Source: a virus (Duplodnaviria; Caudoviricetes). From it: a stretch of DNA of 64,000 bases. This document shows, one piece after another, positions 1,161-63,213 of this stretch. The notes beneath the pieces were generated by a model. It ran no database searches, was not told the DNA's origin, and was given only the letters and a program-made list of their open reading frames with translations. The position numbers and the translations under genes are program-made. Every line of letters starts with the position of its first letter. Position 1 is the stretch's first letter. The stretch spans positions 1-64,000 of IMG/VR virus record IMGVR_UViG_2687453321_000002. One strand, 5' to 3'.

Positions 1161-2288
1161 CTAAATGGCTACGACCTTCCATTCTTTACCTCGGGCATCA
1201 TTATAACGATCAGTTTGACGTTGGGATTTGTGCCCTAACAAATCCTTAGTATTGATTTTTTGTTCCCGGTATAAGCGCTCCGCCAGCGAACGGATCTCGT
1301 GAAAGCTGGGAGGGGTACCTTTACTCCAAGACAACCCCGATAGCTCACGGATTTTTTTAAAACTTGTGCTGATAGTGTTGGGCTTAACCATACCTCCCCG
1401 CCTGGCCATTGCCGTATTGTGCGTGTAGTGGACAAGGTAAGGGCTGACGATATGATCCCGGCACTGAGTGATTACCTGTTCCAGGGTCATGCCAATGGCA
1501 TCACAGCGAAGGGATAGCGGGATCGCGACCTTAGCCCCGGTTTTTATCTGTTCAACGTGTAGGTGGCCGTCCCACACGTCAGAAAACTGCATTTTGCTAA
1601 TGTCGCCCTGTCGCTGGGCTGTAACGAGGCCCAGCAACATCGCATTTTTCATGTACTCGAACGGTGGTGGCGTTACGCTAAGCATGGTATTGAATTCATC
1701 TAAGATCATACGTTCACGGCCTATGCGGTTATGTGGATTTTTTGTAGCCTCGGCCGGGTTGTACCCTGGAGGAACTTCGCCGGCGTGCTGGGCTTCTTTG
1801 AAAACATCGATCAGAGTTGTTCTGACGACTTGGGCCATTCTTGAGTGGCCCTGCTTTTTGTAATCATCCAGAATGTCAGCAATATCGCGGGTATCGACAT
1901 CACATATAGGTTTAGAGGCCAATGCGTTACGCATAGCTTTAACGGGTGCTATCTTTTGCTTCACAGTGTTCTCAGAAATTTCATTTGCGGCCTTGCGCTC
2001 CTCCTGGATAACCAGATAACGATCCAGCCATGTTGAAACGCTGATGCTCCCGCCGACCGCACGGCTCAGCTTGTCCCGTACCGCCAGTGTGTTACGCAGC
2101 TGCTGTTCCGATAATCGATTATTGGCTTCAATAGCTATTGCTTTCGCTTCTTCGGCATTTGTCCCTAAACCATGAACAGTTCCTGTGAGCGGATGTTTAT
2201 ATTTCCAATATATGCGCTGTGTTCTTTTATCTGTGCTGCAATACAGCCCTGGGATGTTTAACGCAAATTTACGAGGCCTGCCCATCAT
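1161..2288 (-). CDS. int: Tyrosine integrase (lambda/phage 21/e14 type)
   Basis: Arm-binding N-terminus; catalytic motifs AQRQGD, FHEIRS, LLGHK, DRY. Confidence 0.96.
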   Translation of the reverse strand: MMGRPRKFALNIPGLYCSTDKRTQRIYWKYKHPLTGTVHGLGTNAEEAKAIAIEANNRLSEQQLRNTLAVRDKLSRAVGGSISVSTWLDRYLVIQEERKAANEISENTVKQKIAPVKAMRNALASKPICDVDTRDIADILDDYKKQGHSRMAQVVRTTLIDVFKEAQHAGEVPPGYNPAEATKNPHNRIGRERMILDEFNTMLSVTPPPFEYMKNAMLLGLVTAQRQGDISKMQFSDVWDGHLHVEQIKTGAKVAIPLSLRCDAIGMTLEQVITQCRDHIVSPYLVHYTHNTAMARRGGMVKPNTISTSFKKIRELSGLSWSKGTPPSFHEIRSLAERLYREQKINTKDLLGHKSQRQTDRYNDARGKEWKVVAI

Positions 2289-2514
2289 TTAAAATCCTCA
2301 GCAAACGGGGATCGTCGTTTTTCTTTGTCACAGGTTTGCATGAAAGCCCTATATACCTAGCTCCTTTGTCAACACGCCAATAGCGACCGGCTTTCTTTGC
2401 CGGTGGGTCAATCATGTTGTTTTTTGCATAATGAAGAATGGTTGTGTAACTCGGGCAATCGTCTTCTCCGAACTCCTCTATCGCCCAGTCCATTAATAAC
2501 TGAGTACGTGCCAT
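2269..2514 (-). CDS. xis: Excisionase
   Basis: Small basic protein overlapping int start; PPAKKAGRYWRV and DDPRLLRIL motifs as in e14/21-type Xis. Confidence 0.88.
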   Translation of the reverse strand: MARTQLLMDWAIEEFGEDDCPSYTTILHYAKNNMIDPPAKKAGRYWRVDKGARYIGLSCKPVTKKNDDPRLLRILNDGQAS

Positions 2515-2590
2515 TGGTCATACCTCGAACGATATAACCGACCAGCAGGGTAACTTGCTGGCCGGTAAATTTTTGACTTTAAAAAATCAG

Positions 2591-3094
2591 TTATCGGACT
2601 TGCAAAGAGCGAGGGCCGGTTTCAAGGTGTGCGCCTTTAATCTCAGTGCCGGCCAAGATTGCTTTTTTAAGCTCATCTTTCTTTACCTTATTAACCACTT
2701 CAGTGAATGACTCTACGAACTCATCCGGTAGTAATTCCTCGTCATCGATAACCAGCGATTGCGAACCTTTACGAGCTGTAAAGGTGTTCAGATCGGTTTT
2801 AATCGTGTCAGAACCTGATGTTAGCAAGCATTCAAGTATATATTTTTTAAGCAGCCCCGCCTGGTTCTCCCAGCTCTTCTTGCGGGCTGCGAGACGCTTA
2901 GATTCAGCATCGCAAACATTGGCTTGGCCCTCAAAACCACGTACAACGGCTATGGTCGCATCCAGCTTGTCGCCGATCATGCCTTCCAACCCTTCGAGGG
3001 TGTCCTTTATCATCTCTGGGGTAAGCTCGCCATCTTCGGCCAATGCCTGAAGCTTTTTCATTTCGATTGCTAAATCGATAGTTCTGGTGCTCAT
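2591..3094 (-). CDS. Siphovirus Gp157 family protein
   Basis: Coiled-coil N-terminus; LVIDDEELLPDEF and IKGAHLE..SLQVR C-terminal motifs. Confidence 0.85.
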   Translation of the reverse strand: MSTRTIDLAIEMKKLQALAEDGELTPEMIKDTLEGLEGMIGDKLDATIAVVRGFEGQANVCDAESKRLAARKKSWENQAGLLKKYILECLLTSGSDTIKTDLNTFTARKGSQSLVIDDEELLPDEFVESFTEVVNKVKKDELKKAILAGTEIKGAHLETGPRSLQVR

Positions 3095-5205
3095 TATTTT
3101 TTCTCCTCTTCAAATTTAGCCAGACATTCAACCTTAATTTCCTCCAGCCGGGTCAGGCGGCTTTCGAGGTATTTAACATGTTCCGTATCTGCAACAGCCT
3201 TGGCGCTCTTAATATGAGAACCAATTACACGAGTAAGGGATGAGCAAATTTTTGTCACTTCATTGCTTGTAACCGCTTCTCGCATCGTTTTTGTATTGGC
3301 CTTAAAACGTTCGTCCAATTCTTTTCTTAATCGGACGGAGTCGTCAGCCTTGGCACTGGCATTTTTTATGTTGTGCTCATATTCGTTTTCTTGTGTGTAT
3401 TCGTTATCTTCGAACATACCCAAATAAACATCAGCGCTAAATCCAAGCGATGACAGGGCTTTTGTTGTGGCATCAGTGAGGCTTTTTTTGCTTGGTTCCT
3501 CTTCAACGCTCAGACCAAACTTACTTGCATACAGGTATTTGGTGTGGCCGTATGCGATGATCTCTCCGCGTGCACCAGCATGGATGTACCAGAGCATTAT
3601 CTTCATCGTGTGATTGAGAGACGTAAGGATTTTTCCATCCCCATCACGCATGACTTTCTTACCTGTTTCACGGCCGGCGCTATCAATAATGCCTTCCATT
3701 AAAGGGATGCCGGGATCGAAGCGTTCTTCCAGCACATCAACGCCCCAACCAATACCGAATGGGCCGAATATTTCCGTGGCGCGCATATATTGGTATGTCG
3801 GCCGAATGCTCGTTACTGTGCGAATAACTTTTCCGCTATTGTCGCGGGTGTCTTTCCGTTTAGTTCGAGCTGGGTCAGTCCGCTGAACGCGTTTCCAAAT
3901 ATCGAGGTTTTTCGCTGCATCGCCTTCTTTGGAGTCCAGCTCTTTTTCGAGTACAGATGCGCGAGTTTGGAAATCGTCTGTGGTAATTTCATCGTCAGCG
4001 GTTGGTGCTTTATTTTCAGATTGCACCGCTGCTTTAGCTGTCGTTACAGATTGGGAAGGGGTAACCAGAGCTTCATCGGCTGGTTCAATCGTTTTTTCCG
4101 AATTCCCCATCAATCCGTCAATGCTAAATTTGCCATCACCCAGGCTCTGTACTTTGAGCGATTCATCCTGGCCTGATGGCTCTTTTTGCTGGCTGTCAGC
4201 GGCCTTGCTTGCCGTATTTAAGGCTGGCTTTTCTTCTGCTTCAAAAGTCATCCCACAGCGTTCAGAGAGGCATTTGTGAATGAATTTCCGCCTCATGTCC
4301 GGGTTTGTGGAAAACTCGGGATATGAAAGCCCAGCGGTGATCATTTTGAAAATGATTTCGCGATCGATGTCGAGTATGCCGACAATAACCCGCAAGGACA
4401 TACTCCATGCCCGCCATGTTTGATCTCGCTGGTTGATCAACTCCTTTGCTGCCGTTACATCTGCCGCTTTGGCGTGTAATGGATTAACGCCTTTGATTGC
4501 TAATGCGATTTCATTGTCGAGCATGTCGTAAGTGCGAGTAACGGTCACATCTTTATTAGCGGCTGCTGGTGTCCTGTCGGCATTTGCGGTTTGTACCCAG
4601 GTATCTGCAAACTTTTTGACCTCTGGCCATGTTGTCATCGCCGGTGATTTCGCCTGGATAGCTTCAATCAACTTTTCCACCGAGGTAACCAGCATTGACT
4701 TAACTTGTGGTACGCGGGGCAGAGCATCAACAATCGCGCGCAGACGTTGTTCAGCCTCGTCATCGTTGATCAGGTCATATGCGTTAGAAAGGTGCTCCAT
4801 ATCGACAGCATCAGGCTCTGCGCCGTACATCAAGATATATGCGACCCGGACGTCGATAGGCAGTTCGAAAATCGTTTTTGACGATGTGAGTCCTGCCTCA
4901 CCATTTCCATCCTGCTCTGGAAGCTCGATTGCCTCGTATTCTTTAGTTTCTTCATTCCACTGATTTTTAGTCATCCAATCAGCGTCGAATTGATCAACGG
5001 GCGGCCGTGGTAGCCCTTCGCGATCAGCGCAAATTTTGGGTTTGAAAAAGTTACTGGTGGAATTGGGGAAAGCCTCTTCCAGTAGCATTGTCGCTTTCAT
5101 TTCTGCCAGCTTGGCGTTCTTGGCCTCAACGGCAATTGCTAATGCAACGGTGCCATTTGCCGCAGCTGATTTTTTAGGGGGGAACCCACACGTAAATAAA
5201 GGCAT
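3094..5205 (-). CDS. Recombination protein: RecE-like N-terminal region fused to Rad52/Sak-like annealase domain
   Basis: N-terminus resembles exonuclease VIII N-domain (AVEAKNAK..FFKP..FDADW); C-terminus has TDP..TK, ATEIFGPFGIGWG, KKSLTDA..KALS.LGFSADVYLG typical of Rad52/22-like SSAPs. Confidence 0.65.
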   Translation of the reverse strand: MPLFTCGFPPKKSAAANGTVALAIAVEAKNAKLAEMKATMLLEEAFPNSTSNFFKPKICADREGLPRPPVDQFDADWMTKNQWNEETKEYEAIELPEQDGNGEAGLTSSKTIFELPIDVRVAYILMYGAEPDAVDMEHLSNAYDLINDDEAEQRLRAIVDALPRVPQVKSMLVTSVEKLIEAIQAKSPAMTTWPEVKKFADTWVQTANADRTPAAANKDVTVTRTYDMLDNEIALAIKGVNPLHAKAADVTAAKELINQRDQTWRAWSMSLRVIVGILDIDREIIFKMITAGLSYPEFSTNPDMRRKFIHKCLSERCGMTFEAEEKPALNTASKAADSQQKEPSGQDESLKVQSLGDGKFSIDGLMGNSEKTIEPADEALVTPSQSVTTAKAAVQSENKAPTADDEITTDDFQTRASVLEKELDSKEGDAAKNLDIWKRVQRTDPARTKRKDTRDNSGKVIRTVTSIRPTYQYMRATEIFGPFGIGWGVDVLEERFDPGIPLMEGIIDSAGRETGKKVMRDGDGKILTSLNHTMKIMLWYIHAGARGEIIAYGHTKYLYASKFGLSVEEEPSKKSLTDATTKALSSLGFSADVYLGMFEDNEYTQENEYEHNIKNASAKADDSVRLRKELDERFKANTKTMREAVTSNEVTKICSSLTRVIGSHIKSAKAVADTEHVKYLESRLTRLEEIKVECLAKFEEEKK

Positions 5206-5219
5206 TGGTCATTCCTCGC

Positions 5220-5540
5220 TTACATTTCTTTGGAAATAGATTTATGAGCTGTGATTAACTCGTTGAGAACTGCGTTGGGTAAAACATGGCGTAATGAAAT
5301 TGCGTCACAGTTCTTTACTTGCTCGACAGCCAATGAAAGCAACTCTTCGACGGTAATGAAACCGACTTCCACCAGGTCTTTAACGGTTGAAATAACCGCA
5401 TTATTAGATGTGGTGATAATTGCCTGCATTGGGTGGTCGCTTTCTGAACTGATAATGTTCACCGAGCAGGCTAAAACGCTAAAGGTTGTCTTTCTCATCT
5501 GGATCTCGCTATACTTATGGCGTCCAGTGGTGGAAGCCAT
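5220..5540 (-). CDS. Hypothetical early protein
   Basis: 106-aa ORF starting at an exact barcode copy. Confidence 0.6.
   Translation of the reverse strand: MASTTGRHKYSEIQMRKTTFSVLACSVNIISSESDHPMQAIITTSNNAVISTVKDLVEVGFITVEELLSLAVEQVKNCDAISLRHVLPNAVLNELITAHKSISKEM
5486..5515 (+). promoter_or_regulatory. Candidate sigma70 promoter for an antisense RNA
   Basis: TTGTCT(5486-5491)-18 nt-TATACT(5510-5515), opposite to the leftward operon. Confidence 0.5.
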
Positions 5541-5634
5541 TGGTCATACCTCGCAGGAGTCGGTTTGGTCGCTGACTCCGCCGTCACCGGGACGTTAAGC
5601 CGGTAGACTGGCCCGCCTTGTGCGGGCCTTTTTT
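5522..5634 (+). ncRNA. Candidate ~113-nt antisense sRNA carrying the complement of the start-associated repeat
   Basis: Upstream promoter; hairpins 5524-5543 and 5556-5579 with G.U pairs only on + strand; single-stranded TCATACCTCG; + strand intrinsic terminator. Confidence 0.5.
5610..5634 (+). terminator. Rho-independent terminator oriented rightward inside the leftward operon
   Basis: GGCCCGC-cttgt-GCGGGCC-TTTTTT; no U-tail on the minus strand. Confidence 0.8.
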
Positions 5635-5639
5635 ACTTT

Positions 5640-6077
5640 CTAATCGCAATAACTACGGTTGCAGTGAGGGCAACCAGTAACCAGTTGAGAACCTGCGCGA
5701 CGTACTGAAATACCAGTGACCGAAATTCCATTATCCATGCGTGCGTAAATATCCTTTTTGCAGCGAAAGCAAATTCCATCTAACGGGGCAAAATGAGGAG
5801 CGCGGCTTTCTTCACAGTATTTTTTTTGAGCTAAGCACGATGACTCGGAGTCGAATGCATTTTCAACGTCCAAAAACTCAATGCCTGCTGGAGTTGCGAT
5901 AGCGCCGAAAAATGGAACTTGGTCGCTACCGTCACCCTCATACGCCATTGGTTTGCAAATGTTTATGTATTCTGGGTGAAGCTTCTGTATTTCACGTAGT
6001 TGCATGGCGATGTGGCGAGCATATATATCAGCTCCACCACGAATGCTATCTAATGCATCAATTAGTCGCTGTTCCAT
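5640..6077 (-). CDS. Hypothetical protein with C-terminal Cys-rich (Zn-finger-like) domain
   Basis: CFRC...GCPHCNRSYCD; SD AAGGAG upstream. Confidence 0.65.
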   Translation of the reverse strand: MEQRLIDALDSIRGGADIYARHIAMQLREIQKLHPEYINICKPMAYEGDGSDQVPFFGAIATPAGIEFLDVENAFDSESSCLAQKKYCEESRAPHFAPLDGICFRCKKDIYARMDNGISVTGISVRRAGSQLVTGCPHCNRSYCD

Positions 6078-6199
6078 ATTCTTCTCCTTTTGTTATTAAA
6101 ATGCGCCCTGCGAGTTGACGCCCCGGATGGGAAACGCTGGACGCATATCAATAACTTCAAAAAGCCCCGCCAGCGACGGCGGGGAAGACTACACAGCAA

Positions 6200-6493
6200 T
6201 TACTGGATGGATAACACGCTGATATTTAATGAGCGAATGCCGGCTTTGGGGGGGATTAGATCGATAGTTTCGCCAAGAGGTATACGCTCAAAACGACGGA
6301 TAACAGCTTCAATCGCACACATTTCGCAATGCTCGTAACCAATATCTTTGCCATTGTGGGTGATAGCGAAAGGATGCTGGTTTTGATGCTCATTTTCGGG
6401 CAGGGCGATGTAACCGGCGGTTTCGTCATTTGAAAACACTTTAGCTACGTTTTTGCTGACCAGCGCTAATTTGAAAATTATTTCCTTGCTCAT
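6200..6493 (-). CDS. Hypothetical early protein
   Basis: 97-aa ORF preceded by barcode variant CGGAGTACGACCAATG. Confidence 0.6.
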   Translation of the reverse strand: MSKEIIFKLALVSKNVAKVFSNDETAGYIALPENEHQNQHPFAITHNGKDIGYEHCEMCAIEAVIRRFERIPLGETIDLIPPKAGIRSLNISVLSIQ

Positions 6494-6639
6494 TGGTCGT
6501 ACTCCGATTTTAGGTAATGGTGATCCGTAGCTAAATTAATTAGCTAGAGAAAAATTAAATTAGGTGCCGGTTACGTTTCCGGCGTCGTATTACCTACCTC
6601 TACGGGCGGAATATACGACCGTTCCCTGGTGTTGCATTT

Positions 6640-6837
6640 TCAATGAGTGCCGGCAGGCTCGAAATAAGGTGGAACGCTGCGAGCCTCGAACGCTGACTTG
6701 ATTGCCCGAAGATTGCCGGTAGGTTCGAACCGATATACTTTGCAGTGAATATCGTAATGAGCCATCCATGCAGCGCCGGTGCGTTTATTACGGTATCTGG
6801 CTTGCTTGCCGCTATGTGGAATAGTTGTATTGATCAT
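6640..6837 (-). CDS. Hypothetical early protein
   Basis: 65-aa ORF starting at an exact barcode copy. Confidence 0.65.
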   Translation of the reverse strand: MINTTIPHSGKQARYRNKRTGAAWMAHYDIHCKVYRFEPTGNLRAIKSAFEARSVPPYFEPAGTH

Positions 6838-6880
6838 TGGTCATACCTCGGAGATTCTCCGCGCTTTATCGCGGTGGGTG

Positions 6881-7075
6881 TTATAACTTCGGCAGTTCGC
6901 GGAATTTACCGTAACTGGACTGATCAACAAAAATGCTGATTTCATCCCCTTGATCATCGATAACACGCACGCACTTTCCATCAGAGCAAGTGCTTTCGAT
7001 GTCATATTGCTTACCAGCGGTAAGGTAGCCGACAGCCTCTTCGCTTGGGGTGATACATAGGACTGTTGCTTTCAT
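6881..7075 (-). CDS. Hypothetical protein, first full gene of pL operon
   Basis: MKATVLC.. start coupled (ATGA) to an 11-codon leader ORF 7072-7107. Confidence 0.55.
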   Translation of the reverse strand: MKATVLCITPSEEAVGYLTAGKQYDIESTCSDGKCVRVIDDQGDEISIFVDQSSYGKFRELPKL

Positions 7076-7178
7076 CGTGTAACCCTCTGCCGTGTAGTGA
7101 AATCCATTGGTCATACCTCGCCGTCTTTCCGGCTGTCAGAACTTTGTACCTGAGCACTGCTGTGCTGTTGATGTGTTG

Positions 7179-7284: not shown

Positions 7285-7857
7285 TTATCCTCTCATTTTT
7301 TTTAGTTCCTCGAACATGCTGTCGTAAAAATCAGCCTGCTTTTTTACATTCTCTAGAAATTCTTGCTTGGCTTTGCTTGTAAGCTTATGAAAGTAAAATA
7401 AAAGTTCTTTATCTTCATCATTTAGCTTTGTTGGCGAAACAGAACTATTACCGGCATCTAAGTGATTGAAAGGTAATCCATAATCTTGCTCAATCCGCCT
7501 GGCAGTTTTATCAGTGAAGGCGGCTTTCCCATTAACTAGATCTTCAAAAAATCCAGCTTCTTCTTCGGGGAATCCAGGCTCGCTAAACCAATCAGCAAGG
7601 CGTTTGGCTCGATGCGCGTTCAACTCATGGAGTTCGGGGCCACCTTCCAATATCCAATCCACCGATACGCCAGTAGCCGCGGCAATCTTCTTAGCGGAGG
7701 CTTTTCCAACCTCACCCCGATTGAACCAGCCATTAACGGCCTGAGCACTGACTCCTGCCATACGCGCAAGATCAGCTTTTTTCAGGTCTTTCATATGCAT
7801 AAGAAGAGCCATGCGCTCTTCGAATGCTAACACTGGATTCGATATTTTTTCTTTCAT
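7285..7857 (-). CDS. cI: CI-like repressor (HTH, no S24 peptidase; DicA-like C-terminus)
   Basis: KKADLARMAGVSAQAVNGWF HTH, divergent from cro; no Ala-Gly/Ser/Lys peptidase domain. Confidence 0.85.
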   Translation of the reverse strand: MKEKISNPVLAFEERMALLMHMKDLKKADLARMAGVSAQAVNGWFNRGEVGKASAKKIAAATGVSVDWILEGGPELHELNAHRAKRLADWFSEPGFPEEEAGFFEDLVNGKAAFTDKTARRIEQDYGLPFNHLDAGNSSVSPTKLNDEDKELLFYFHKLTSKAKQEFLENVKKQADFYDSMFEELKKMRG

Positions 7858-7950: not shown

Positions 7951-8208
7951 ATGGAGTCCAAAATGACAGTGCTAGACGAAGTAATTAAAAACTTTAGGAG
8001 TGCTTCTGGTTTAGCTAAGGCGCTAGAAGTAACACCTATGACCGTAAGCCAATGGAGGCATCGAGATAAGGGGAAAGTGCCAGAACGACACTTGATGAAA
8101 ATTTACGAACTCACGGGGATTACCCCCCATGAACTTCGGCCGGATATTCATCCTAACCCTACGTCCGGATTGCCACTGAATATCAACAATAGCATCGCGG
8201 ACGATTAA
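7951..8208 (+). CDS. cro: Cro-like regulator (YdaS/Cro family)
   Basis: LAKALEVTPMTVSQW HTH and TPHELRPDIHPNP motif. Confidence 0.85.
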   Translation: MESKMTVLDEVIKNFRSASGLAKALEVTPMTVSQWRHRDKGKVPERHLMKIYELTGITPHELRPDIHPNPTSGLPLNINNSIADD

Positions 8209-8650: not shown

Positions 8651-8663
8651 CGAGGTATGACCA

Positions 8664-8894
8664 ATGGCTAATTTTACGAAAGAACAGGTCGAGGTGCAGA
8701 TCCGCGATCAATTGGTGCGTGAAGGTATTTCAATCGATGTGGCTCGTTCGGCGGCAATGCGTGGTGCTAATCATTACGCGAGCCGGCCAAATGCAACTAT
8801 CGCAAGCAGTATAGCGATCGCCAAAACCTATGCGAAACCATTAAAGCGTGTGAAAGGGAAGCCAAATTGCAACGCCAATTCTCGCAAAAGGTAA
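8664..8894 (+). CDS. Hypothetical protein
   Basis: 76-aa ORF starting at an exact barcode copy. Confidence 0.6.
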   Translation: MANFTKEQVEVQIRDQLVREGISIDVARSAAMRGANHYASRPNATIASSIAIAKTYAKPLKRVKGKPNCNANSRKR

Positions 8895-10268: not shown

Positions 10269-10282
10269 GCGAGGTATGACCA

Positions 10283-10708
10283 ATGGCAGTAGAAATTAAC
10301 AAATTAATCAACGAGCGTCGTATTGGTGTCGATGATGGGTGTGATTACGGTGCGGTAATCATCGATAACCTGAATGCTGCGGCACGAGCAAGGACGAGAG
10401 CGTGCTATCAACCGCCGGTAAGGGCTCCGTTTGTCAGTCGGCCTCAAGGCGATGACAGCCCTGTGGTGAAGATTGGCAACCGCAATGTATACGGGCGCAA
10501 AGTCATCACCGGGATTTATCAGCTCCATCTTTCTGGCCGCACTCCGGTTCAAATCGCCCGACTGCTGAAGATGCCGTTACACCGGGTAGAGCATCTACTC
10601 CGACGGGGAACCAGCGTCCGCCGCGAAATTTTCCGGAATGTGTCAACCCAGCCGTTGCCGACAGAGGCTGAAATTATGCGCTGCCTGGCGGCAGAGTCGA
10701 AGGCGTGA
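10283..10708 (+). CDS. Hypothetical DNA-binding protein
   Basis: Starts at an exact barcode copy; HTH-like GRTPVQIARLLKMP. Confidence 0.6.
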   Translation: MAVEINKLINERRIGVDDGCDYGAVIIDNLNAAARARTRACYQPPVRAPFVSRPQGDDSPVVKIGNRNVYGRKVITGIYQLHLSGRTPVQIARLLKMPLHRVEHLLRRGTSVRREIFRNVSTQPLPTEAEIMRCLAAESKA

Positions 10709-10715
10709 GGTGAGC

Positions 10716-12338
10716 ATGAGCGAATTAATTTTAACTGAGGAGTTTTTTGCTCCAGCGGCCACCGATCTCGTTGATGGATTATTGGGGCAGTACAAGCATC
10801 TGCGCGCTGATATTGAGCAGATGGCGGGCGTGATAAGCACGCATCATGCATCGGTGCATCATTTCCTGGAGGGGAATCAGAACCAAGACCGACGCCATTA
10901 TATCGGGAGTGTCGACCAACTTTTTAAACTCGAAGGGGCCATTGCGAGCCTGAACTCTACGTTTTGGCAAAAAGCTCTAAATATGACCGACGTGTACGAG
11001 TACATGCCGAATAATCGCCGTACTGAGTGGAATGATCAGATCCGGGAAATGAAAACCCCAGATTTCGAAGAGGAAACAGTACGCCCCACAATTATGGAGT
11101 TGCTCAACTCGCGGCAGAAGTTTTTCTCTGAGCGCGTGGATGGCATTTTCCGTGCTCTTTCCGGCGATCATGTTACTAACAGACCGGAGGGTTTCGGTAA
11201 ACGCATGATCCTCGCGCGCGTGTTCAACGAGTACGGATGGACCAATCACGATGTGAGTGGTTTTATCCAGGATCTCCGGCAGGTCATTGCTAAATTTATG
11301 GGCCGTGATGAACCCCGTTGGCGTGTAACCGATGACGCGCTCCAGGAGGCCCGTATCCGTCACGGTGAATGGCTGACGATGGACGGTGGCGCATTGCGTG
11401 TCCGGGCCTATCTGAAAGGAACTGCGCACCTCGAAGTTCACCCCGAAATGGCCTGGCGGCTAAATTGCATTCTGGCGCACCTGTATCCGATGGCAATTCC
11501 GCCTCAGTTCCGCCAGAAACCGAAAAAGAAACTCAAAGATTTCATTTTGATGGACAAGCCGCTACCGTTCGCCGTTCTGGCGGTGCTTTCGGGTTTGAAA
11601 GCTGAGTATCACACCCCGATACGACGCAACAAATGGGATGATCCTACACCACCACTGACAACCAATCCGTTTAATCGCAGATTCGATTGGCGTGATGAAG
11701 ATAAGGCAATCCGCGGACAAGCAGGCAAGGTGTTGGAAATGATCGGCGGCATACTTATCAAAGCCGGCCCTCATAAAAATATCAACATCTGGGAGTTCGA
11801 TTACGACCCATCCCGAGTGCTGGGTGAGATCGTTGCATCTGGCTGTATTCCAGACTATCAGTCGCACCAGTTCTACCCAACCCCGGAATCACTGGCCGAA
11901 AGGGTTGTATGTGAGGCCGAAATACAACCTGGCGAAAAATGCCTGGAGCCGAGTGCTGGCACTGGAAACATTGCGATATTGATGCCGGCAGATCAAACCT
12001 GTTGCGTGGAAATATCGACCCTACATTGTCGGGTGCTGGAAGCCAAAGGATTAACCGTTGAACAGGCGGATTTTATCAAATGGGCGCAGAGCACCAACAA
12101 GCGCTTCGACAAGGTGGTTATGAATCCTCCCTTCAGCGAGGGGCGTGCCAAAGCACATGTGGAAAGTGCTGCCTCATTGGTAAATCGAGGAGGGCGTTTG
12201 GTGGCGATATTGCCCCTGGGTATGAAAGGCAAAGAAATATTACCCGGTTGGAAAGTGAGCTGGTCAGAAGAGATCAGCAACGAATTCGCGGGAACAAGCA
12301 TTTCAGTAGTTATTTTGACAGCAGAAAGAGAGGTATGA
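10716..12338 (+). CDS. DUF4942-domain DNA methyltransferase
   Basis: QFYPTP, LEPSAGTG (SAM motif I), VMNPPF (motif IV, amino-MTase). Confidence 0.85.
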   Translation: MSELILTEEFFAPAATDLVDGLLGQYKHLRADIEQMAGVISTHHASVHHFLEGNQNQDRRHYIGSVDQLFKLEGAIASLNSTFWQKALNMTDVYEYMPNNRRTEWNDQIREMKTPDFEEETVRPTIMELLNSRQKFFSERVDGIFRALSGDHVTNRPEGFGKRMILARVFNEYGWTNHDVSGFIQDLRQVIAKFMGRDEPRWRVTDDALQEARIRHGEWLTMDGGALRVRAYLKGTAHLEVHPEMAWRLNCILAHLYPMAIPPQFRQKPKKKLKDFILMDKPLPFAVLAVLSGLKAEYHTPIRRNKWDDPTPPLTTNPFNRRFDWRDEDKAIRGQAGKVLEMIGGILIKAGPHKNINIWEFDYDPSRVLGEIVASGCIPDYQSHQFYPTPESLAERVVCEAEIQPGEKCLEPSAGTGNIAILMPADQTCCVEISTLHCRVLEAKGLTVEQADFIKWAQSTNKRFDKVVMNPPFSEGRAKAHVESAASLVNRGGRLVAILPLGMKGKEILPGWKVSWSEEISNEFAGTSISVVILTAEREV

Positions 12339-12342
12339 CCAA

Positions 12343-13191
12343 ATGGCAAACTCATTTAACAAAATGATTGACGAGAAAGTAATTAAGCGTGGAAAAACAA
12401 GCCTGCTTATACGTCTTGATGATATTCATATCAAAGAGGGTTTTAATCGTCGTGTTGACAATGAGCGTTATCGTGAAGCTAATGAGAAGCTTTACCAATA
12501 TATGCTCATGGGTGGGAAAATCCCCAACCTTGAGGTTGTTCCTCGCGATGAAGGTGGTGTGTGGGTTGTTGAGGGGCACCGCAGGACATTAACTTGTCAT
12601 CGTCTTCGTGATGAAGCAGGTAAGCCTGTTGAATGGATAAAAATAGAGCCGTTCGAAGGTAACGATGTAGACCGTATCGCACGCATTAGAACCAGTAATG
12701 AGCAATTGCCGCTTACTGATTACGAAGAGGCACTATTGGTCAGGGATTTGCAAAATCTCAATTTGCACGCTGACAAAATCGCCGAGGTCTTACATATTCC
12801 CCGCTATAAAGTCGACAATGCCCTAGTGCTGCTCTCCGCCAATTATGACGTACACCAATTGGTAGAAGAAGGTGAAGTTGATATCCCACTGGCGGTACAG
12901 CGTATAAAAAAACATGGCGAAAAGGCTGGGCAAGTTTTGCAGAACGATGCCGAAAAAGCCAAGCAAAAGGGGAAACAAAAAGCCACCAAGTCAACAGCAA
13001 TCCCACAATTCAGCGCCACCCGCGCCCGCCGGCTCTGTGAGCTGCTCTACGATGCTGCCCCGATGGTTCGTGAAGAGGGGGATGTTCTGCTGCTCCTTCC
13101 AGGGACAAGAGAAGAAATTAACACCATCCTCAACGAGTACCGGCAGCAGCATCCGCAAGTATTCGATGAAGAAGAGCGCGGAGGTGCGTGA
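12343..13191 (+). CDS. ParB-like N-terminal domain DNA-binding protein
   Basis: GFNRR..VVEGHRR ParB/Srx motif followed by HTH. Confidence 0.7.
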   Translation: MANSFNKMIDEKVIKRGKTSLLIRLDDIHIKEGFNRRVDNERYREANEKLYQYMLMGGKIPNLEVVPRDEGGVWVVEGHRRTLTCHRLRDEAGKPVEWIKIEPFEGNDVDRIARIRTSNEQLPLTDYEEALLVRDLQNLNLHADKIAEVLHIPRYKVDNALVLLSANYDVHQLVEEGEVDIPLAVQRIKKHGEKAGQVLQNDAEKAKQKGKQKATKSTAIPQFSATRARRLCELLYDAAPMVREEGDVLLLLPGTREEINTILNEYRQQHPQVFDEEERGGA

Positions 13192-17036: not shown

Positions 17037-17113
17037 GGCCCTTTAGCTCAGTTGGTTAGAGCGCGCGACTCATAATCGCTCGGTCGCTGGTTCAAGCCCA
17101 GCAAGGGCCACCA
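17037..17113 (+). tRNA. tRNA-Ile2 (CAT anticodon, ileX-like)
   Basis: GGCCCTT..CT CAT AA..GGTTCAAG..AAGGGCC A CCA cloverleaf. Confidence 0.93.
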
Positions 17114-17115
17114 AA

Positions 17116-17190
17116 CCGCCATTAGCTCAGCAGGAAGAGCAACGACCATTAAGTTGTAGGTACGGGGTTCGAGGCCTCGATGGCGGACCA
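17116..17190 (+). tRNA. Atypical or pseudo-tRNA (6-nt anticodon loop CATTAA)
   Basis: Acceptor CCGCCAT/ATGGCGG, D and T arms and CCA intact; anticodon loop non-canonical. Confidence 0.6.
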
Positions 17191-17192
17191 AT

Positions 17193-17267
<75 letters not shown>

Positions 17268-35305: not shown

Positions 35306-35788
35306 ATGTATAAAGGAATGTTGATTCTGTTGTTGTTGGTGGTGTTACCTTGCCGGGCGGATAACCTTTGCTCCCATCGCGATGGGAGCTGGGAACATCG
35401 CGTTGTAGAGAATGGCAGTCTTGATATAGCCACAAAGATGCTTGATAGCAGAGTGAGGATATATATCGGTGGTGTACCAGGAAAGCTGCAATTAATAAGA
35501 CTGGATGGGGTGGGGCGTGTAAAAACAGATGCACTAAAATCAGGCGAGCCTAACCCTCTCAGAGCAGCTTTTGTGACAATCGGTAGTGACGTATATAAAA
35601 AAGATAAAATCGCAAGCCTTTACTCTCAAGCTAACGGCGGTTCGATAACCATTCCAATGAGAGAACTTCTACAGTACATATTGAGAAGTCGTATTTTGCA
35701 TATTTCAATCGAAGGTGAGAATAATAAGATGATTGAGTATGATATTGATGTTCGGGATATTCCTCTAGGCAGTGGTCATGATTGTTAA
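35306..35788 (+). CDS. Secreted/periplasmic moron protein
   Basis: Signal peptide MYKGMLILLLLVVLPCRA; flanked by terminators. Confidence 0.7.
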   Translation: MYKGMLILLLLVVLPCRADNLCSHRDGSWEHRVVENGSLDIATKMLDSRVRIYIGGVPGKLQLIRLDGVGRVKTDALKSGEPNPLRAAFVTIGSDVYKKDKIASLYSQANGGSITIPMRELLQYILRSRILHISIEGENNKMIEYDIDVRDIPLGSGHDC

Positions 35789-35854
35789 TTTTTGCCTTCC
35801 ATTTCCTTGCCCACTTTTAGTGGGCTTTTTTACATCTAAAATCTGAGGTCTAAT

Positions 35855-62029: not shown

Positions 62030-62106
62030 GGCCCTTTAGCTCAGTTGGTTAGAGCGCACGACTCATAATCGTTCGGTCGCTGGTTCAAGTCCAGCAAGGG
62101 CCACCA
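62030..62106 (+). tRNA. tRNA-Ile2 (CAT anticodon)
   Basis: Near identical to 17037-17113. Confidence 0.93.
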
Positions 62107-62713: not shown

Positions 62714-63213
62714 CTTGTTGCTGATATGATATTTCGGTAATCTCCAGAAAATGCTTTTCAGCCTGCGATGAAGGGATCCCCGGAGTGGCTTGGAAGCGCC
62801 TCAGAAAGGCGCATTCAGTTTGATATGCACTATCGATCCCTACTTACCCTGGGTGTTCTGAGTGCGCCCCTCTGATGTGAAGTCTCCGCCGAGAAAGACT
62901 GCACCTATTTTTAATCTTGGCTAACCGCGATTTTATGAGGCTTGACTTTACTTGTCTGCCCATCTGAAAGTATTTTTGTTGCAGTGAATCCCACTAAGCG
63001 TCGGGGTGAAACAGCGGAATTTCTAACCAGGAATTTGCTTGAAAGACCACGAGTCACGGTGGCTGACCAACGACTCACTGGGAGGCACCCAGCACTGCAA
63101 CACTGATTTAGGCCCTGGCTAATAGCCGGGGCTTTTGCGTTTTAGTAGAGCAGGTTTCAGCCGTTGGTAAGTAGGGCTGCACTCTTGCTTTGCTTGCTGT
63201 TTCATATTGAGTT

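What the first reader, a model, noticed from the sequence alone, without database searches (positions are those of the whole stretch)
5486..5634. Candidate sRNA antisense to the barcode: one RNA could silence nine genes
Seen: inside the leftward operon lies a rightward unit with promoter TTGTCT-18-TATACT and a + strand-only intrinsic terminator (5610-5634). It gives a ~113-nt RNA containing CATTGGTCATACCTCG, the full complement of the barcode. Its anti-SD part TCATACCTCG sits single-stranded between two hairpins (5524-5543, 5556-5579) whose G.U pairs work only on the + strand. The second loop, TTTGGTCG, can also pair with the (C/T)GACCAA core, including the variants at 6491 and 12330. Established: phage antisense RNAs (P22 sar, P1 c4, P4 CI, lambda OOP) act on one or a few targets. 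Inference: a trans-acting RNA that blocks a standardised RBS across both early operons would be an RNA-level immunity or lysogeny lock, and I do not recognise it as described.
Basis: partly seen in the sequence, partly recalled or inferred. Interest (0 to 1): 0.92.

Follow-up and report, generated by a model that had tools for sequence, protein, structure and literature searches.

The report
Prophage small RNA mirroring shared start-sites
A conserved small RNA gene, read backwards inside the early operon of a Serratia/Yersinia-type prophage, carries the exact mirror image of a private ribosome-binding/start-codon tag shared by most early genes. Relatives with a different tag carry a correspondingly different RNA, so one RNA probably holds many early genes down, though no transcript or repression has been measured.

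Summary
Window 5522-5634 (+) has the parts of an independent ~113-nt RNA gene: a sigma-70-like promoter, four helices and a + strand-only terminator.

Evidence that the RNA gene is real:
- 66 loci (43 distinct sequences) carry it, plus 4 more found with a covariance model.
- Helix 2 has compensatory changes at 7 of 11 pairs.
- Helix 2 has 86 G.U cells that work only on +, against 1 A.C.
- A -10 hexamer is kept in 39 of 39 upstream contexts.

The exposed linker and the 3' arm of helix 1 are the complement of the 16-nt start-site "barcode". Five other early genes hold 16-19 nt of exact complementarity. Three more hold 8-13 nt.

Relatives fall into allele classes A, C/C+ and D. In each class the RNA's anti-barcode matches the barcodes on that phage's other genes. 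Orthologous genes carry different barcodes in different classes, and two classes can sit on one Serratia contig.

The closest known RNA is IsrB of Gifsy-1/-2. It holds the same place beside recE, but the match is below Rfam's threshold and Gifsy-2 has no barcode.

Expression and repression are untested. A cis-only role remains the main rival. The scan found the same family before on other DNA (e1-6213843).

The parts
5486..5515 (+). sRNA promoter: -35 TTGTCT (5486-5491), 18-nt spacer, -10 TATACT (5510-5515). It lies inside the first codons of the leftward ORF.
   Evidence: 9 of 12 consensus bases; in 39 of 39 distinct upstream contexts of relatives a -10 hexamer (TATAAT 11, TATACT 7, TACAAT 9, TAGAAT 12) sits at a fixed distance from the anti-barcode: 22 nt in A-type, 28-33 nt in C/D-type.
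5522..5634 (+). Predicted ~113-nt antisense sRNA. The start is inferred as 7 nt after the -10; the end is the last U of the terminator tail.
   Evidence: fold; + more stable than - in 23 of 23 sequences; structure counts; model R1: 138.2 bits, E 3.7e-39 on its own training sequence.
5524..5543 (+). Helix 1. Its 3' arm GCCAUUGG is the anti-start-codon part of the anti-barcode.
   Evidence: P unpaired 0.00 for 5536-5543; every class has an equivalent helix, and the 5' arm changes so as to keep pairing with the fixed 3' arm (CCAGUGG / CCAAUGG; GAUCAGUGAUC and variants).
5544..5553 (+). Exposed linker UCAUACCUCG, the anti-Shine-Dalgarno 'seed'.
   Evidence: P unpaired 0.99-1.00 for 5546-5552. Invariant in all A-type sequences except L050, which has one U.
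5553..5581 (+). Helix 2 with loop UUGGUC (5565-5570), a second copy of the anti-barcode core.
   Evidence: 11 pairs, 7 with changes on both sides, 99.7% of cells paired; 366 Watson-Crick, 86 G.U (+ only), 1 A.C. The loop reads UUGGUC in classes A and D (barcode GACCAA) and GUGGUU in class C (barcode AACCAA).
5583..5608 (+). Helix 3 with the nearly invariant loop GACGUUAAG.
   Evidence: 90.8% of cells paired, no double changes; sequence nearly invariant.
5610..5634 (+). Intrinsic terminator: 7 G-C pairs, 5-nt loop, U6. It works on the + strand only.
   Evidence: 2 of 7 pairs have compensatory changes (G-C to A-U in 7 and 4 rows).
5538..5553 (-). Barcode copy overlapped by the sRNA (the cis target). 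It is the translation start of ORF 5220-5540.
   Evidence: in classes B, C and C+ the same start opens only a 12-14-codon ORF with a variable peptide. In class D one of its two ATGs opens a 17-codon ORF and the other usually runs on, apparently in frame, into recE.
5220..5540 (-). Leftward ORF of 106 aa, with no Pfam family, whose start region the sRNA covers. A second in-frame ATG lies at 5498.
2512..2527 (-). Barcode at the excisionase-like gene (2269-2514). 18 nt exactly complementary to sRNA 5536-5553.
5203..5218 (-). Barcode variant CGAGGAATGACCAATG at the 703-aa gene. 10 nt exact, plus 5 more beyond one mismatch.
6491..6506 (-). Weak variant CGGAGTACGACCAATG at the 97-aa gene. 8 nt exact.
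6835..6850 (-). Barcode at the 65-aa gene. 16 nt exact.
7105..7120 (-). Barcode at the first leftward gene after the repressor. 18 nt exact.
8651..8666 (+). Barcode at the 76-aa rightward gene (family F1). 19 nt exact.
10270..10285 (+). Barcode at the 141-aa rightward gene. 19 nt exact.
12329..12344 (+). Variant AGAGGTATGACCAAAT at the 282-aa gene (weak ParB-HTH match). 13 nt exact.

Best explanation
Window 5522-5634 (+) is a real, independently transcribed antisense small RNA of about 113 nt. It lies in the leftward early operon of a lambdoid prophage of Serratia/Yersinia type.

Inferred mechanism:
1. The RNA is made from its own sigma-70 promoter whenever leftward early transcription is off or low, for example in the lysogen.
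2. It folds into four helices. These leave the anti-Shine-Dalgarno stretch UCAUACCUC and the loop UUGGUC exposed.
3. Through these it pairs with the standardised start-site CGAGGUAUGACCAAUG and blocks ribosome entry.
4. In cis this covers the start of the ORF it overlaps. In most relatives that start belongs to a short leader ORF placed just ahead of recE or another gene.
5. The same 16-19 nt stand at five further early genes on both early operons: the excisionase-like gene, two leftward genes and two rightward genes. Weaker matches stand at three more. The RNA therefore also acts on these in trans and damps leaky early expression.
6. Because barcode and RNA differ together between phage classes, the RNA probably defines an RNA-level specificity group.

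Shown: the anatomy, its conservation, the strand-specific structure, the complementarity and the class-wise covariation.
Inferred: transcription, abundance, repression and the biological role.
For: (1) It is an RNA gene.
- 66 loci (43 distinct sequences) carry the unit, plus 4 more found with model R1.
- The given structure is paired in 96.1% of cells against 84.7% in shuffles (0 of 500 shuffles reach it). Slid controls give 27-50%.
- Helix 2 has double changes at 7 of 11 pairs. The terminator has them at 2 of 7.
- Helix 2 holds 86 G.U cells and 1 A.C cell, so it folds on + and not on -.
- The + strand is the more stable in 23 of 23 sequences.
- Window + strand: z = -4.59. Window - strand: z = -2.22.
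- A -10 hexamer is kept in 39 of 39 upstream contexts, although the coding sequence under it differs.

(2) The seed is exposed.

(3) Complementarity in the window.
- 16-19 nt exact at 2512, 6835, 7105, 8651 and 10270.
- 13 nt at 12329, 10 nt at 5203 and 8 nt at 6491.

(4) The barcode copy belongs to the RNA module.
- In classes B, C and C+ it heads only a 12-14-codon ORF whose peptide varies while the RNA helices are kept. In class D only one of its two ATGs opens a short (17-codon) ORF.

(5) Covariation with the other genes' barcodes.
- Loci with a C or C+ sRNA carry 54 C/C+ barcodes on other genes, 3 A and 0 D.
- Loci with a D sRNA carry 19 D, 0 A and 0 C.
- Loci with an A sRNA carry 120 A, 0 C and 0 D.
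- Three gene families each carry allele A, C/C+ or D according to the resident sRNA, with one exception among 123 sites. Two further families show A and C.

(6) The classes are not host adaptation.
- A and C+ lie on one Serratia fonticola contig.
- C and D lie on one S. montpellierensis contig.

(7) Co-occurrence.
- Every fetched locus with 4 or more barcodes has the sRNA.

(8) A positional analogue is expressed.
- IsrB of Gifsy-2/-1 was shown by northern blot and primer extension (PMC2330248, passages read).
- Its longer 5' end falls 6 nt after a TAGAAT hexamer placed like the -10 of classes C and D. This is my reading together with the paper's stated lengths.
Against: - Promoter use, RNA level and repression are inferred.
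- The promoter match alone is at chance level.
- The covariation is not independent proof. The anti-barcode is the complement of one barcode copy, so any force that keeps a phage's barcodes alike would carry it along.
- There are only about three allele classes, and the phages are related, so independent events are few.
- A-class loci were mostly fetched through the barcode itself, which inflates their count.
- Six of the 16 anti-barcode bases are paired in helix 1.
- In class C, 27 of 48 matching barcodes on other genes carry an extra A relative to the sRNA, which would give a 1-nt bulge.
- The L018/L035 sRNA has one mismatch to its own phage's barcodes. L050 has a seed variant.
- Gifsy-2, home of the closest known relative IsrB, has no barcode and no extra IsrB target sites. 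The ancestral role of this RNA type therefore looks cis-only.
- After induction the mRNAs should far outnumber one small RNA.
Confidence: 0.55

Rival explanations
1. The RNA is a cis-only antisense RNA. It is real but controls only the start-site it overlaps, and through the short leader ORF the downstream recombination genes. This would resemble CopA/tap/repA of plasmid R1 (recalled). The barcode is a standard strong start-site or junction cassette kept for another reason, and the matches elsewhere have no regulatory consequence.
For: - The leader ORF ends 5-6 nt before the recE Shine-Dalgarno in class C.
- IsrB holds the same place in Gifsy-2, which has no barcode.
- Five of nine barcodes follow directly on the stop codon of the gene before them, like coupling cassettes.
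- The sRNA module is joined to several different left and right neighbours.
Against: - A junction cassette does not explain why orthologous genes change barcode allele together with the sRNA class.
- It does not explain why the helix 2 loop repeats the barcode core and changes with it.
- An exposed seed with 16-19 nt of perfect complementarity would be expected to pair if the RNA is present.
Confidence: 0.28
2. The barcodes are recognised by a class-specific protein, either a translational repressor or activator. T4 RegA (recalled) is the model of one protein acting on many early start-sites. The sRNA's anti-barcode co-varies only because it overlaps one barcode. The sRNA might be a local regulator or a decoy.
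For: - A protein reader would explain the concerted allele switches at unlinked genes equally well.
- The authors of the mycobacteriophage SAS motif left open 'either RNA or protein' (PMC3203893, passages read).
Against: - No candidate protein was identified here.
- The + strand-specific G.U pattern shows selection on the antisense RNA's own fold.
- The exposure of exactly the anti-SD stretch points the same way.
Confidence: 0.1
3. There is no functional RNA. The conserved block is a DNA site or a structure of the leftward mRNA, such as a processing or stability element, and the promoter and terminator look-alikes are incidental.
For: - The promoter score alone is at chance level.
- The - strand also folds somewhat better than shuffles (z = -2.22).
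Against: - 86 G.U against 1 A.C in helix 2.
- + more stable than - in 23 of 23 sequences.
- A U-tract on + only.
- A -10 hexamer kept in 39 of 39 contexts.
- Compensatory changes in the terminator stem.
Confidence: 0.05

Closest known systems
IsrB-1 / IsrB-2 sRNAs of Salmonella prophages Gifsy-2 / Gifsy-1 (Rfam RF01386)
   Same: - An 88/94-nt RNA between the start of recE (sbcA, exodeoxyribonuclease VIII) and the gene upstream, antisense to both. It overlaps the flanking genes, has its own promoter close to the recE start, and has an intrinsic terminator (PMC2330248 Table 1 and passages).
- The RecE next to the class C sRNA is homologous to Gifsy-2 ExoVIII over its whole length.
- The helix 2 loop motif CUUUGGUCG is shared.
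- There are reciprocal weak model hits at exactly the right place: 16.4 bits and 12 bits.
   Different: - The match is below Rfam's gathering score (16.4 against 35).
- The 5' half is unrelated.
- IsrB has no anti-Shine-Dalgarno/ATG stretch, and Gifsy-2 has no repeated start-site.
- IsrB has no established function. [quoted passage not shown]
c4 antisense RNAs of phages P1 and P7
   Same: - A small RNA that blocks a ribosome-binding region.
- Matched sequence differences between RNA and target give P1/P7 heteroimmunity (PMC12197685, passage read).
   Different: - c4 is cut out of a same-strand operon transcript and acts on the ant region downstream in that transcript (recalled, not checked here).
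- It has one or two target sites, not a tag shared by many genes.
- Here the RNA lies on the opposite strand and has its own promoter and terminator.
Start-Associated Sequences (SAS) of Cluster K mycobacteriophages
   Same: - An asymmetric 13-bp motif containing the SD core, 3-7 bp before the start codons of 11-19 non-structural genes, in one orientation, on genes of different families.
- It is rare in the host.
   Different: - The sequence and the host are unrelated.
- No cognate antisense RNA was reported for SAS in the passages read.
- Here the motif includes the spacer and the ATG, and it comes in class-specific alleles.
STnc6030 asRNA of Salmonella prophage BTP1
   Same: A prophage-expressed antisense RNA whose base-pairing excludes superinfecting self or near-self phage. 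Escape mutants map to the paired region (bioRxiv 10.1101/787010, passages read).
   Different: It is over 700 nt long, lies antisense to late genes, has one cis-encoded target region and has no standardised RBS.
P22 sar, lambda OOP, and R1 CopA/tap/repA (all recalled, not checked here beyond review passages)
   Same: - Short cis-antisense RNAs that occlude a start-site or lead to cleavage of one mRNA.
- CopA acts through a leader peptide that is translationally coupled to the downstream gene, like the short leader ORF ahead of recE in classes C and D.
   Different: Each has one target and no family of identical targets elsewhere in the genome.

Membership tests
Rfam RF01386 isrB | Covariance-model score at or above the gathering score (35 bits) | tested here: not met
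   - Window 5533-5632 (+): 16.4 bits, E 0.5-1.1.
- No isrB hit at gathering level in L001, L120, L103, L009, L171 or L165.
- Positive control: Gifsy-2 scores 99.3 bits.
Rfam RF01386 isrB | Position: between the recE/sbcA start and the upstream gene, antisense to both | tested here: met
   - Met in class C/D relatives compared with Gifsy-2.
- In the window itself the left neighbour is a 106-aa ORF followed by a 703-aa gene, not a full-length recE.
Rfam RF01386 isrB | Association with Hfq or ProQ | not testable with these tools
   Literature only: 2-fold Hfq enrichment from 2 against 4 reads (PMC2515195 table passage); listed as ProQ-associated (PMC5391140 passage).
Cis-encoded antisense sRNA gene | Own promoter and terminator on the strand opposite to a gene, overlapping its start region | tested here: met
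   -10 kept in 39 of 39 contexts; terminator covariation; overlap with the start at 5540.
Cis-encoded antisense sRNA gene | A transcript exists | not testable with these tools
   No run on record as RNA holds the stretch. All runs laid were contigs.
Cis-encoded antisense sRNA gene | Conserved secondary structure specific to that strand | tested here: met
Trans-acting (multi-target) base-pairing sRNA | An exposed seed complementary to several unlinked mRNAs | tested here: met
Trans-acting (multi-target) base-pairing sRNA | Seed and targets co-vary across relatives | tested here: met
   Caveat: the seed is also the complement of one target copy, and there are only about three allele classes.
Trans-acting (multi-target) base-pairing sRNA | Repression of the targets | not testable with these tools
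   Needs reporter assays.
P1/P7 c4-type immunity RNA | Processed from a same-strand operon leader; targets lie downstream in that transcript | tested here: not met
   Here the RNA is on the opposite strand and has its own promoter and terminator. The defining feature itself is recalled.
Cluster K SAS | The 13-bp consensus given in PMC3203893, in Cluster K mycobacteriophages | tested here: not met
   The barcode sequence is different (against the paper's consensus in the passages read). This is an analogy only.

The most novel reading that the evidence does not exclude
These prophages run an RNA-based specificity code. Each class writes a private 16-nt start-site on its early genes, including excision and replication-region genes, and keeps one small RNA that reads it. 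The RNA locks leaky early expression in the lysogen. It also shuts down the early genes of any incoming phage of the same barcode class, which would be an immunity layer independent of the CI repressor. The resulting arms race drives the barcode/RNA alleles apart (A, C/C+, D) and lets prophages of different classes share one cell. IsrB of Gifsy phages would be the barcode-less relative of this system.
Probability: 0.35. Interest if true: 0.9.

Novelty: new variant of a known kind. Interest (0 to 1): 0.78.

Why it matters
- Phage antisense RNAs known so far act on one or two sites. A single RNA matched to a standardised ribosome-binding/start tag on most early genes would be a regulon built by writing the target into the genes, not by evolving the RNA.
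- It would add an RNA layer to lysogeny maintenance and superinfection immunity in common Enterobacterales prophages.
- It would give a testable function to the long-orphan IsrB type of prophage sRNA.
- It would offer an answer to what repeated start-associated motifs in phage genomes are for. That question has stayed open since the Cluster K mycobacteriophage SAS.
- The natural allele classes (A, C/C+, D) are ready-made orthogonal pairs for testing, and possibly for synthetic translational control.

Tried and rejected
- RNA evidence: the look-up of sequencing runs listed no RNA holder. The four runs laid (X9, X14, X1, X8) are contigs and mostly look like DNA. X14 gave short pieces covering 5275-5677, 5961-6155 and 6200-6500. 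None of this bears on expression.
- Rfam: no family reaches its gathering score at the locus. The low-scoring hits (RyhB, Trp leader, SorX, asX2 and others) rest on the terminator hairpin alone.
- E. coli genomes: no match.
- Phage collection: only Aeromonas phage pAEv1818 matches, over 92 nt.
- RNA.duplexfold over whole start regions gave structures with huge interior loops and ranked unrelated sites among the targets. I dropped it in favour of exact-complement lengths.
- The first version of the allele table had an off-by-one in site length and put every site under 'other'. It was corrected.
- Host adaptation of the barcode (ribosome-specific) was rejected, because different classes sit on the same Serratia contigs.
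- A coding role for the leader peptide was rejected as the main constraint. The peptides vary (for example MTNRSRSLIGWHCT, MTNRGGPLIGLHST, MTTIAVNDRLHST) while the helices hold.
- A peptide encoded on the + strand was rejected. The only ATG lies at or before the inferred start and is absent in relatives.
- The weak R1 hit at 35732-35832 (19.5 bits) is driven by the terminator and was not followed.
- The genome contigs pattern also hit many GC-rich genomes by chance. Only the 14 Enterobacterales loci were read.
- Literature: five searches and a 2025 review of phage sRNAs (PMC12197685, passages only; 0 mentions of IsrB) gave no one-to-many anti-RBS phage RNA.
- Supplementary files of PMC2330248, PMC3203893 and 10.1101/787010 were not seen. 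They may hold IsrB or SAS details.
Full report
**What is at the coordinates**

The window's first 16 kb is the early region of a lambdoid prophage. The genes are:
- integrase, 1161-2288 (-);
- an excisionase-like gene, 2269-2514 (-);
- a Gp157-family gene, 2591-3094 (-);
- a 703-aa gene and a 106-aa gene without Pfam families;
- four small leftward genes;
- a CI-like repressor, 7285-7857 (-);
- a Cro/YdaS-like gene, 7951-8208 (+), a YdaT-like gene, and further rightward genes.

The finding lies in the 99-nt gap between the stop of the 145-aa leftward gene (5640) and the start of the 106-aa leftward ORF (5540).
- TTGTCT-18-TATACT at 5486-5515 on +.
- The string CATTGGTCATACCTCG at 5538-5553 on +.
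- Two hairpins.
- A terminator of 7 G-C pairs followed by T6 at 5610-5634 that works on + only.

The barcode is far above chance. There are 9 matches with up to 3 mismatches against 0.42 expected, and 0 of 100 shuffles reach 9. All nine end on a start codon. All 7 matches with up to 1 mismatch in the whole 90,419-base provirus record lie between 2.5 and 10.3 kb.

**Is it an RNA gene?**

The promoter match alone is at chance level: 17 sites found against 23.6 expected. The case therefore rests on comparison with relatives.

I fetched loci through exact-pattern scans of IMG/VR and of one genome per species. They yielded 66 loci with the unit, giving 43 distinct 139-nt sequences. A covariance model found 4 more. 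The named hosts are Serratia (several species), Yersinia aleksiciae, Y. frederiksenii, Erwinia, Mixta and Izhakiella, plus Aeromonas phage pAEv1818.

All variants share one architecture:
- helix 1, whose 3' arm is the anti-start-codon part of the anti-barcode;
- a short single-stranded anti-Shine-Dalgarno linker;
- helix 2, with a variable stem and a conserved UGGU-containing loop;
- helix 3, which is nearly invariant;
- a terminator.

On the 43-row alignment (37 distinct rows), helices 2-4 are paired in 96.1% of cells. Column shuffles give 84.7% (0 of 500 reach the observed value), and slid partners give 27-50%. Helix 2 has changes on both sides at 7 of 11 pairs and is 99.7% paired. The terminator stem has two compensated pairs.

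The strand is settled by wobble pairs. Helix 2 holds 366 Watson-Crick cells, 86 G.U cells and 1 A.C cell. On the - strand those 86 cells would be mismatches. The + strand is the more stable in 23 of 23 sequences tested. For the window the values are -55.8 kcal/mol (z = -4.59, MFE frequency 0.67) against -42.9 kcal/mol (z = -2.22).

A -10 hexamer stands at a fixed distance from the anti-barcode in 39 of 39 distinct upstream contexts (TATAAT 11, TATACT 7, TACAAT 9, TAGAAT 12). This holds although the leftward coding sequence beneath it belongs to at least four unrelated contexts. I take this as strong evidence for a + strand transcript starting near 5522 and ending at 5634.

**What it overlaps**

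On the - strand the barcode at 5538-5553 opens ORF 5220-5540. In the window and its closest relatives this reading frame runs in frame into the 106-aa ORF, past a second ATG at 5498.

In classes B, C and C+ the same start opens only a 12-14-codon ORF. It stops a few bases before the Shine-Dalgarno of the next gene, which in class C is a full-length recE. In class D one of the two ATGs opens a 17-codon ORF. The other usually runs on into recE, apparently in frame. The peptides vary freely while the RNA helices are maintained.

In most of the family, therefore, this barcode copy is kept as part of the RNA module and not as the start of a real gene.

**The one-to-many question**

In the window the RNA has exact complementarity to other start-sites as follows:

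| Site | Gene | Exact complement |
|---|---|---|
| 2512 | excisionase-like | 18 nt |
| 6835 | 65-aa gene | 16 nt |
| 7105 | first leftward gene after the repressor | 18 nt |
| 8651 | 76-aa rightward gene | 19 nt |
| 10270 | 141-aa rightward gene | 19 nt |
| 12329 | 282-aa gene | 13 nt |
| 5203 | 703-aa gene | 10 nt |
| 6491 | 97-aa gene | 8 nt |

The bases 5546-5552 (AUACCUC) and the helix 2 loop 5565-5570 (UUGGUC) are unpaired with probability 0.99-1.00. The CAUUGG part is locked in helix 1.

The anti-barcode comes in these alleles:
- A, the complement of GAGGTATGACCAATG;
- D, the complement of GAGGCATGACCAATG;
- C, the complement of GGAGCATAACCAATG;
- C+, which is C with one more A.

With the overlapped copy excluded, the barcodes on other genes follow the resident RNA:

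| sRNA class | Loci | Barcodes on other genes (within 1 mismatch of an allele) |
|---|---|---|
| A | 29 | 120 A, 0 C, 0 D |
| C | 24 | 21 C, 27 C+, 2 A, 0 D |
| D | 11 | 19 D, 0 A, 0 C |
| C+ | 2 | 6 C+, 1 A |

Sites ending in ACCAATG but more than one mismatch from any allele numbered 39, 17, 18 and 2 in the four classes. These are mostly chance.

I also grouped the proteins downstream of the barcodes. Three families carry A, C/C+ or D strictly according to the sRNA class, with one exception among 123 sites. They are an 83-aa family that includes the window's gene at 8664, a 132-aa family and the excisionase-like family. Two more families show A and C. Orthologues about 80% identical in protein thus have different barcodes.

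The helix 2 loop changes in step as well: UUGGUC where the barcode core is GACCAA, and GUGGUU where it is AACCAA.

The classes are not host adaptations. A and C+ lie on one Serratia fonticola contig, and C and D lie on one S. montpellierensis contig, at distinct loci.

Of 87 fetched loci with at least two barcodes, 74 have the sRNA by anchor and 4 more by model. The other 9 are partial loci of 1.4-11.2 kb.

**Limits of that argument**

- The anti-barcode is the reverse complement of one barcode copy. A protein reader, or any homogenising process, would give the same table.
- There are only about three alleles among related phages.
- A-class loci were largely fetched through the barcode itself. 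C and D loci were fetched through the terminator and are unbiased in this respect.
- In class C most barcodes on other genes have one A more than the RNA.
- L018 and L035 carry an sRNA with one mismatch to their own barcodes in the helix 1 arm, although the seed and the loop are intact.
- The A and D alleles differ at one seed position (window 5548). A D-type RNA could still pair with A targets through G.U, so that pair may be only half orthogonal. This is my inference.

**Comparison with what is known**

A note from an earlier follow-up in this scan (e1-6213843) named IsrB as the closest known RNA for the same family in a Yersinia-type prophage. I tested this.

In Gifsy-2, Rfam's isrB model hits 5993-6080 (+) with 99.3 bits. 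That position is between ExoVIII/recE (3070-5955, -) and STM1010 (6082-6318, -). This is the same place and orientation as the class C/D RNA beside a recE that is homologous over its whole length.

IsrB-1/-2 were verified by northern blot and primer extension as 88- and 94-nt species that overlap both flanking genes (PMC2330248, Table 1 and passages). By my reading, the 94-nt start falls 6 nt after a TAGAAT hexamer placed like the -10 of classes C and D.

The helix 2 loop motif CUUUGGUCG is shared. The models only touch, however. isrB scores 16.4 bits on the window against a gathering score of 35. My model scores 12 bits (E 0.13) on IsrB, although at exactly the right coordinates.

Gifsy-2 has no repeated start-site, and IsrB has no extra complementary sites beyond chance 8-mers. 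This RNA is therefore a positional analogue and probably a distant relative of IsrB. It is not a member of the Rfam family, and the barcode regulon is a feature IsrB lacks.

For the barcode itself the nearest described thing is the Start-Associated Sequence of Cluster K mycobacteriophages. Its reader was left open as 'either RNA or protein' (PMC3203893, section 15 passages).

For function, the nearest are these:
- c4 of P1/P7, where RNA-target matching gives heteroimmunity (PMC12197685, passage).
- STnc6030 of BTP1, an antisense RNA that excludes self-like phage (10.1101/787010, passages).

I found no paper describing one phage RNA matched to a standardised start-site on many genes. Supplements were not seen.

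**Verdict**

| Claim | My probability |
|---|---|
| It is a real sRNA gene | about 0.9 |
| It acts on the overlapped start-site | about 0.8 |
| It also represses at least the five fully matched early genes in trans | about 0.5 |
| The alleles form RNA immunity/specificity groups | about 0.35 |

The full best explanation (sRNA gene, cis action and trans action together) I put at 0.55.

The finding is a new variant of a known kind, the prophage antisense sRNA, with a regulatory logic that would be new if confirmed. The same family was flagged earlier in this scan on other DNA.

Noticed in passing
window 6165-6184 (-): A strong leftward intrinsic terminator (8 pairs, 7 of them G-C, followed by CTTTTT) stands between the 97-aa and 145-aa leftward genes. 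Leftward transcription into the sRNA region and the recombination/excision genes probably needs antitermination.
   Followed up: no
window 7105-7120 (-) and downstream to about 7060: At this barcode the two ATGs open different frames. The first is in frame with the 77-aa ORF 6881-7114. The second opens an 11-codon ORF that ends in an ATGA overlap with another ATG. This is a leader-plus-coupled-start layout like the one at the sRNA locus (my reading).
   Followed up: partly
window 5629-5634; all other loci: The window has T6 after the terminator. All four laid runs and 41 of the 42 other aligned sequences have one T fewer (T5 followed by A); L104 differs differently, with four T and an insertion. 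This is a length polymorphism of the U-tail (table 4).
   Followed up: no
L174 and L177 (one Serratia fonticola contig); L185 and L197 (one S. montpellierensis contig); run X9: Prophages of different sRNA/barcode classes co-reside: C+ with A, and D with C. In run X9 a second, deeper contig joins the shared 3' block to a class C helix 2.
   Followed up: partly
L120 437-584: A class D prophage locus ends next to the host SdsR(RyeB)/SraC(RyeA) sRNA pair (147 and 102 bits). This is probably the attachment region.
   Followed up: no
L160 (contig labelled Sphingomonas sp.): A 42-kb contig filed under Sphingomonas carries a class C sRNA locus identical over 200 nt to Serratia-type loci. It may be a mislabelled or contaminant contig.
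   Followed up: no
window 35732-35832 (+): Weak hit of the sRNA model (19.5 bits, E about 8e-4), carried mainly by a terminator GCCCAC...GTGGGC followed by T6. Probably unrelated.
   Followed up: no
window 49-59 kb (prophage 2): Other first-reader notes describe a different private start-site motif and an anti-motif hairpin in the second prophage of this record. If that is real, two unrelated prophages in one genome each have such a code. I did not examine it.
   Followed up: no
window 17037-17264 and 62030-62103; 62951-63138: Three phage-borne tRNA genes and an STnc100-family sRNA match (60.8 bits) in the record.
   Followed up: no
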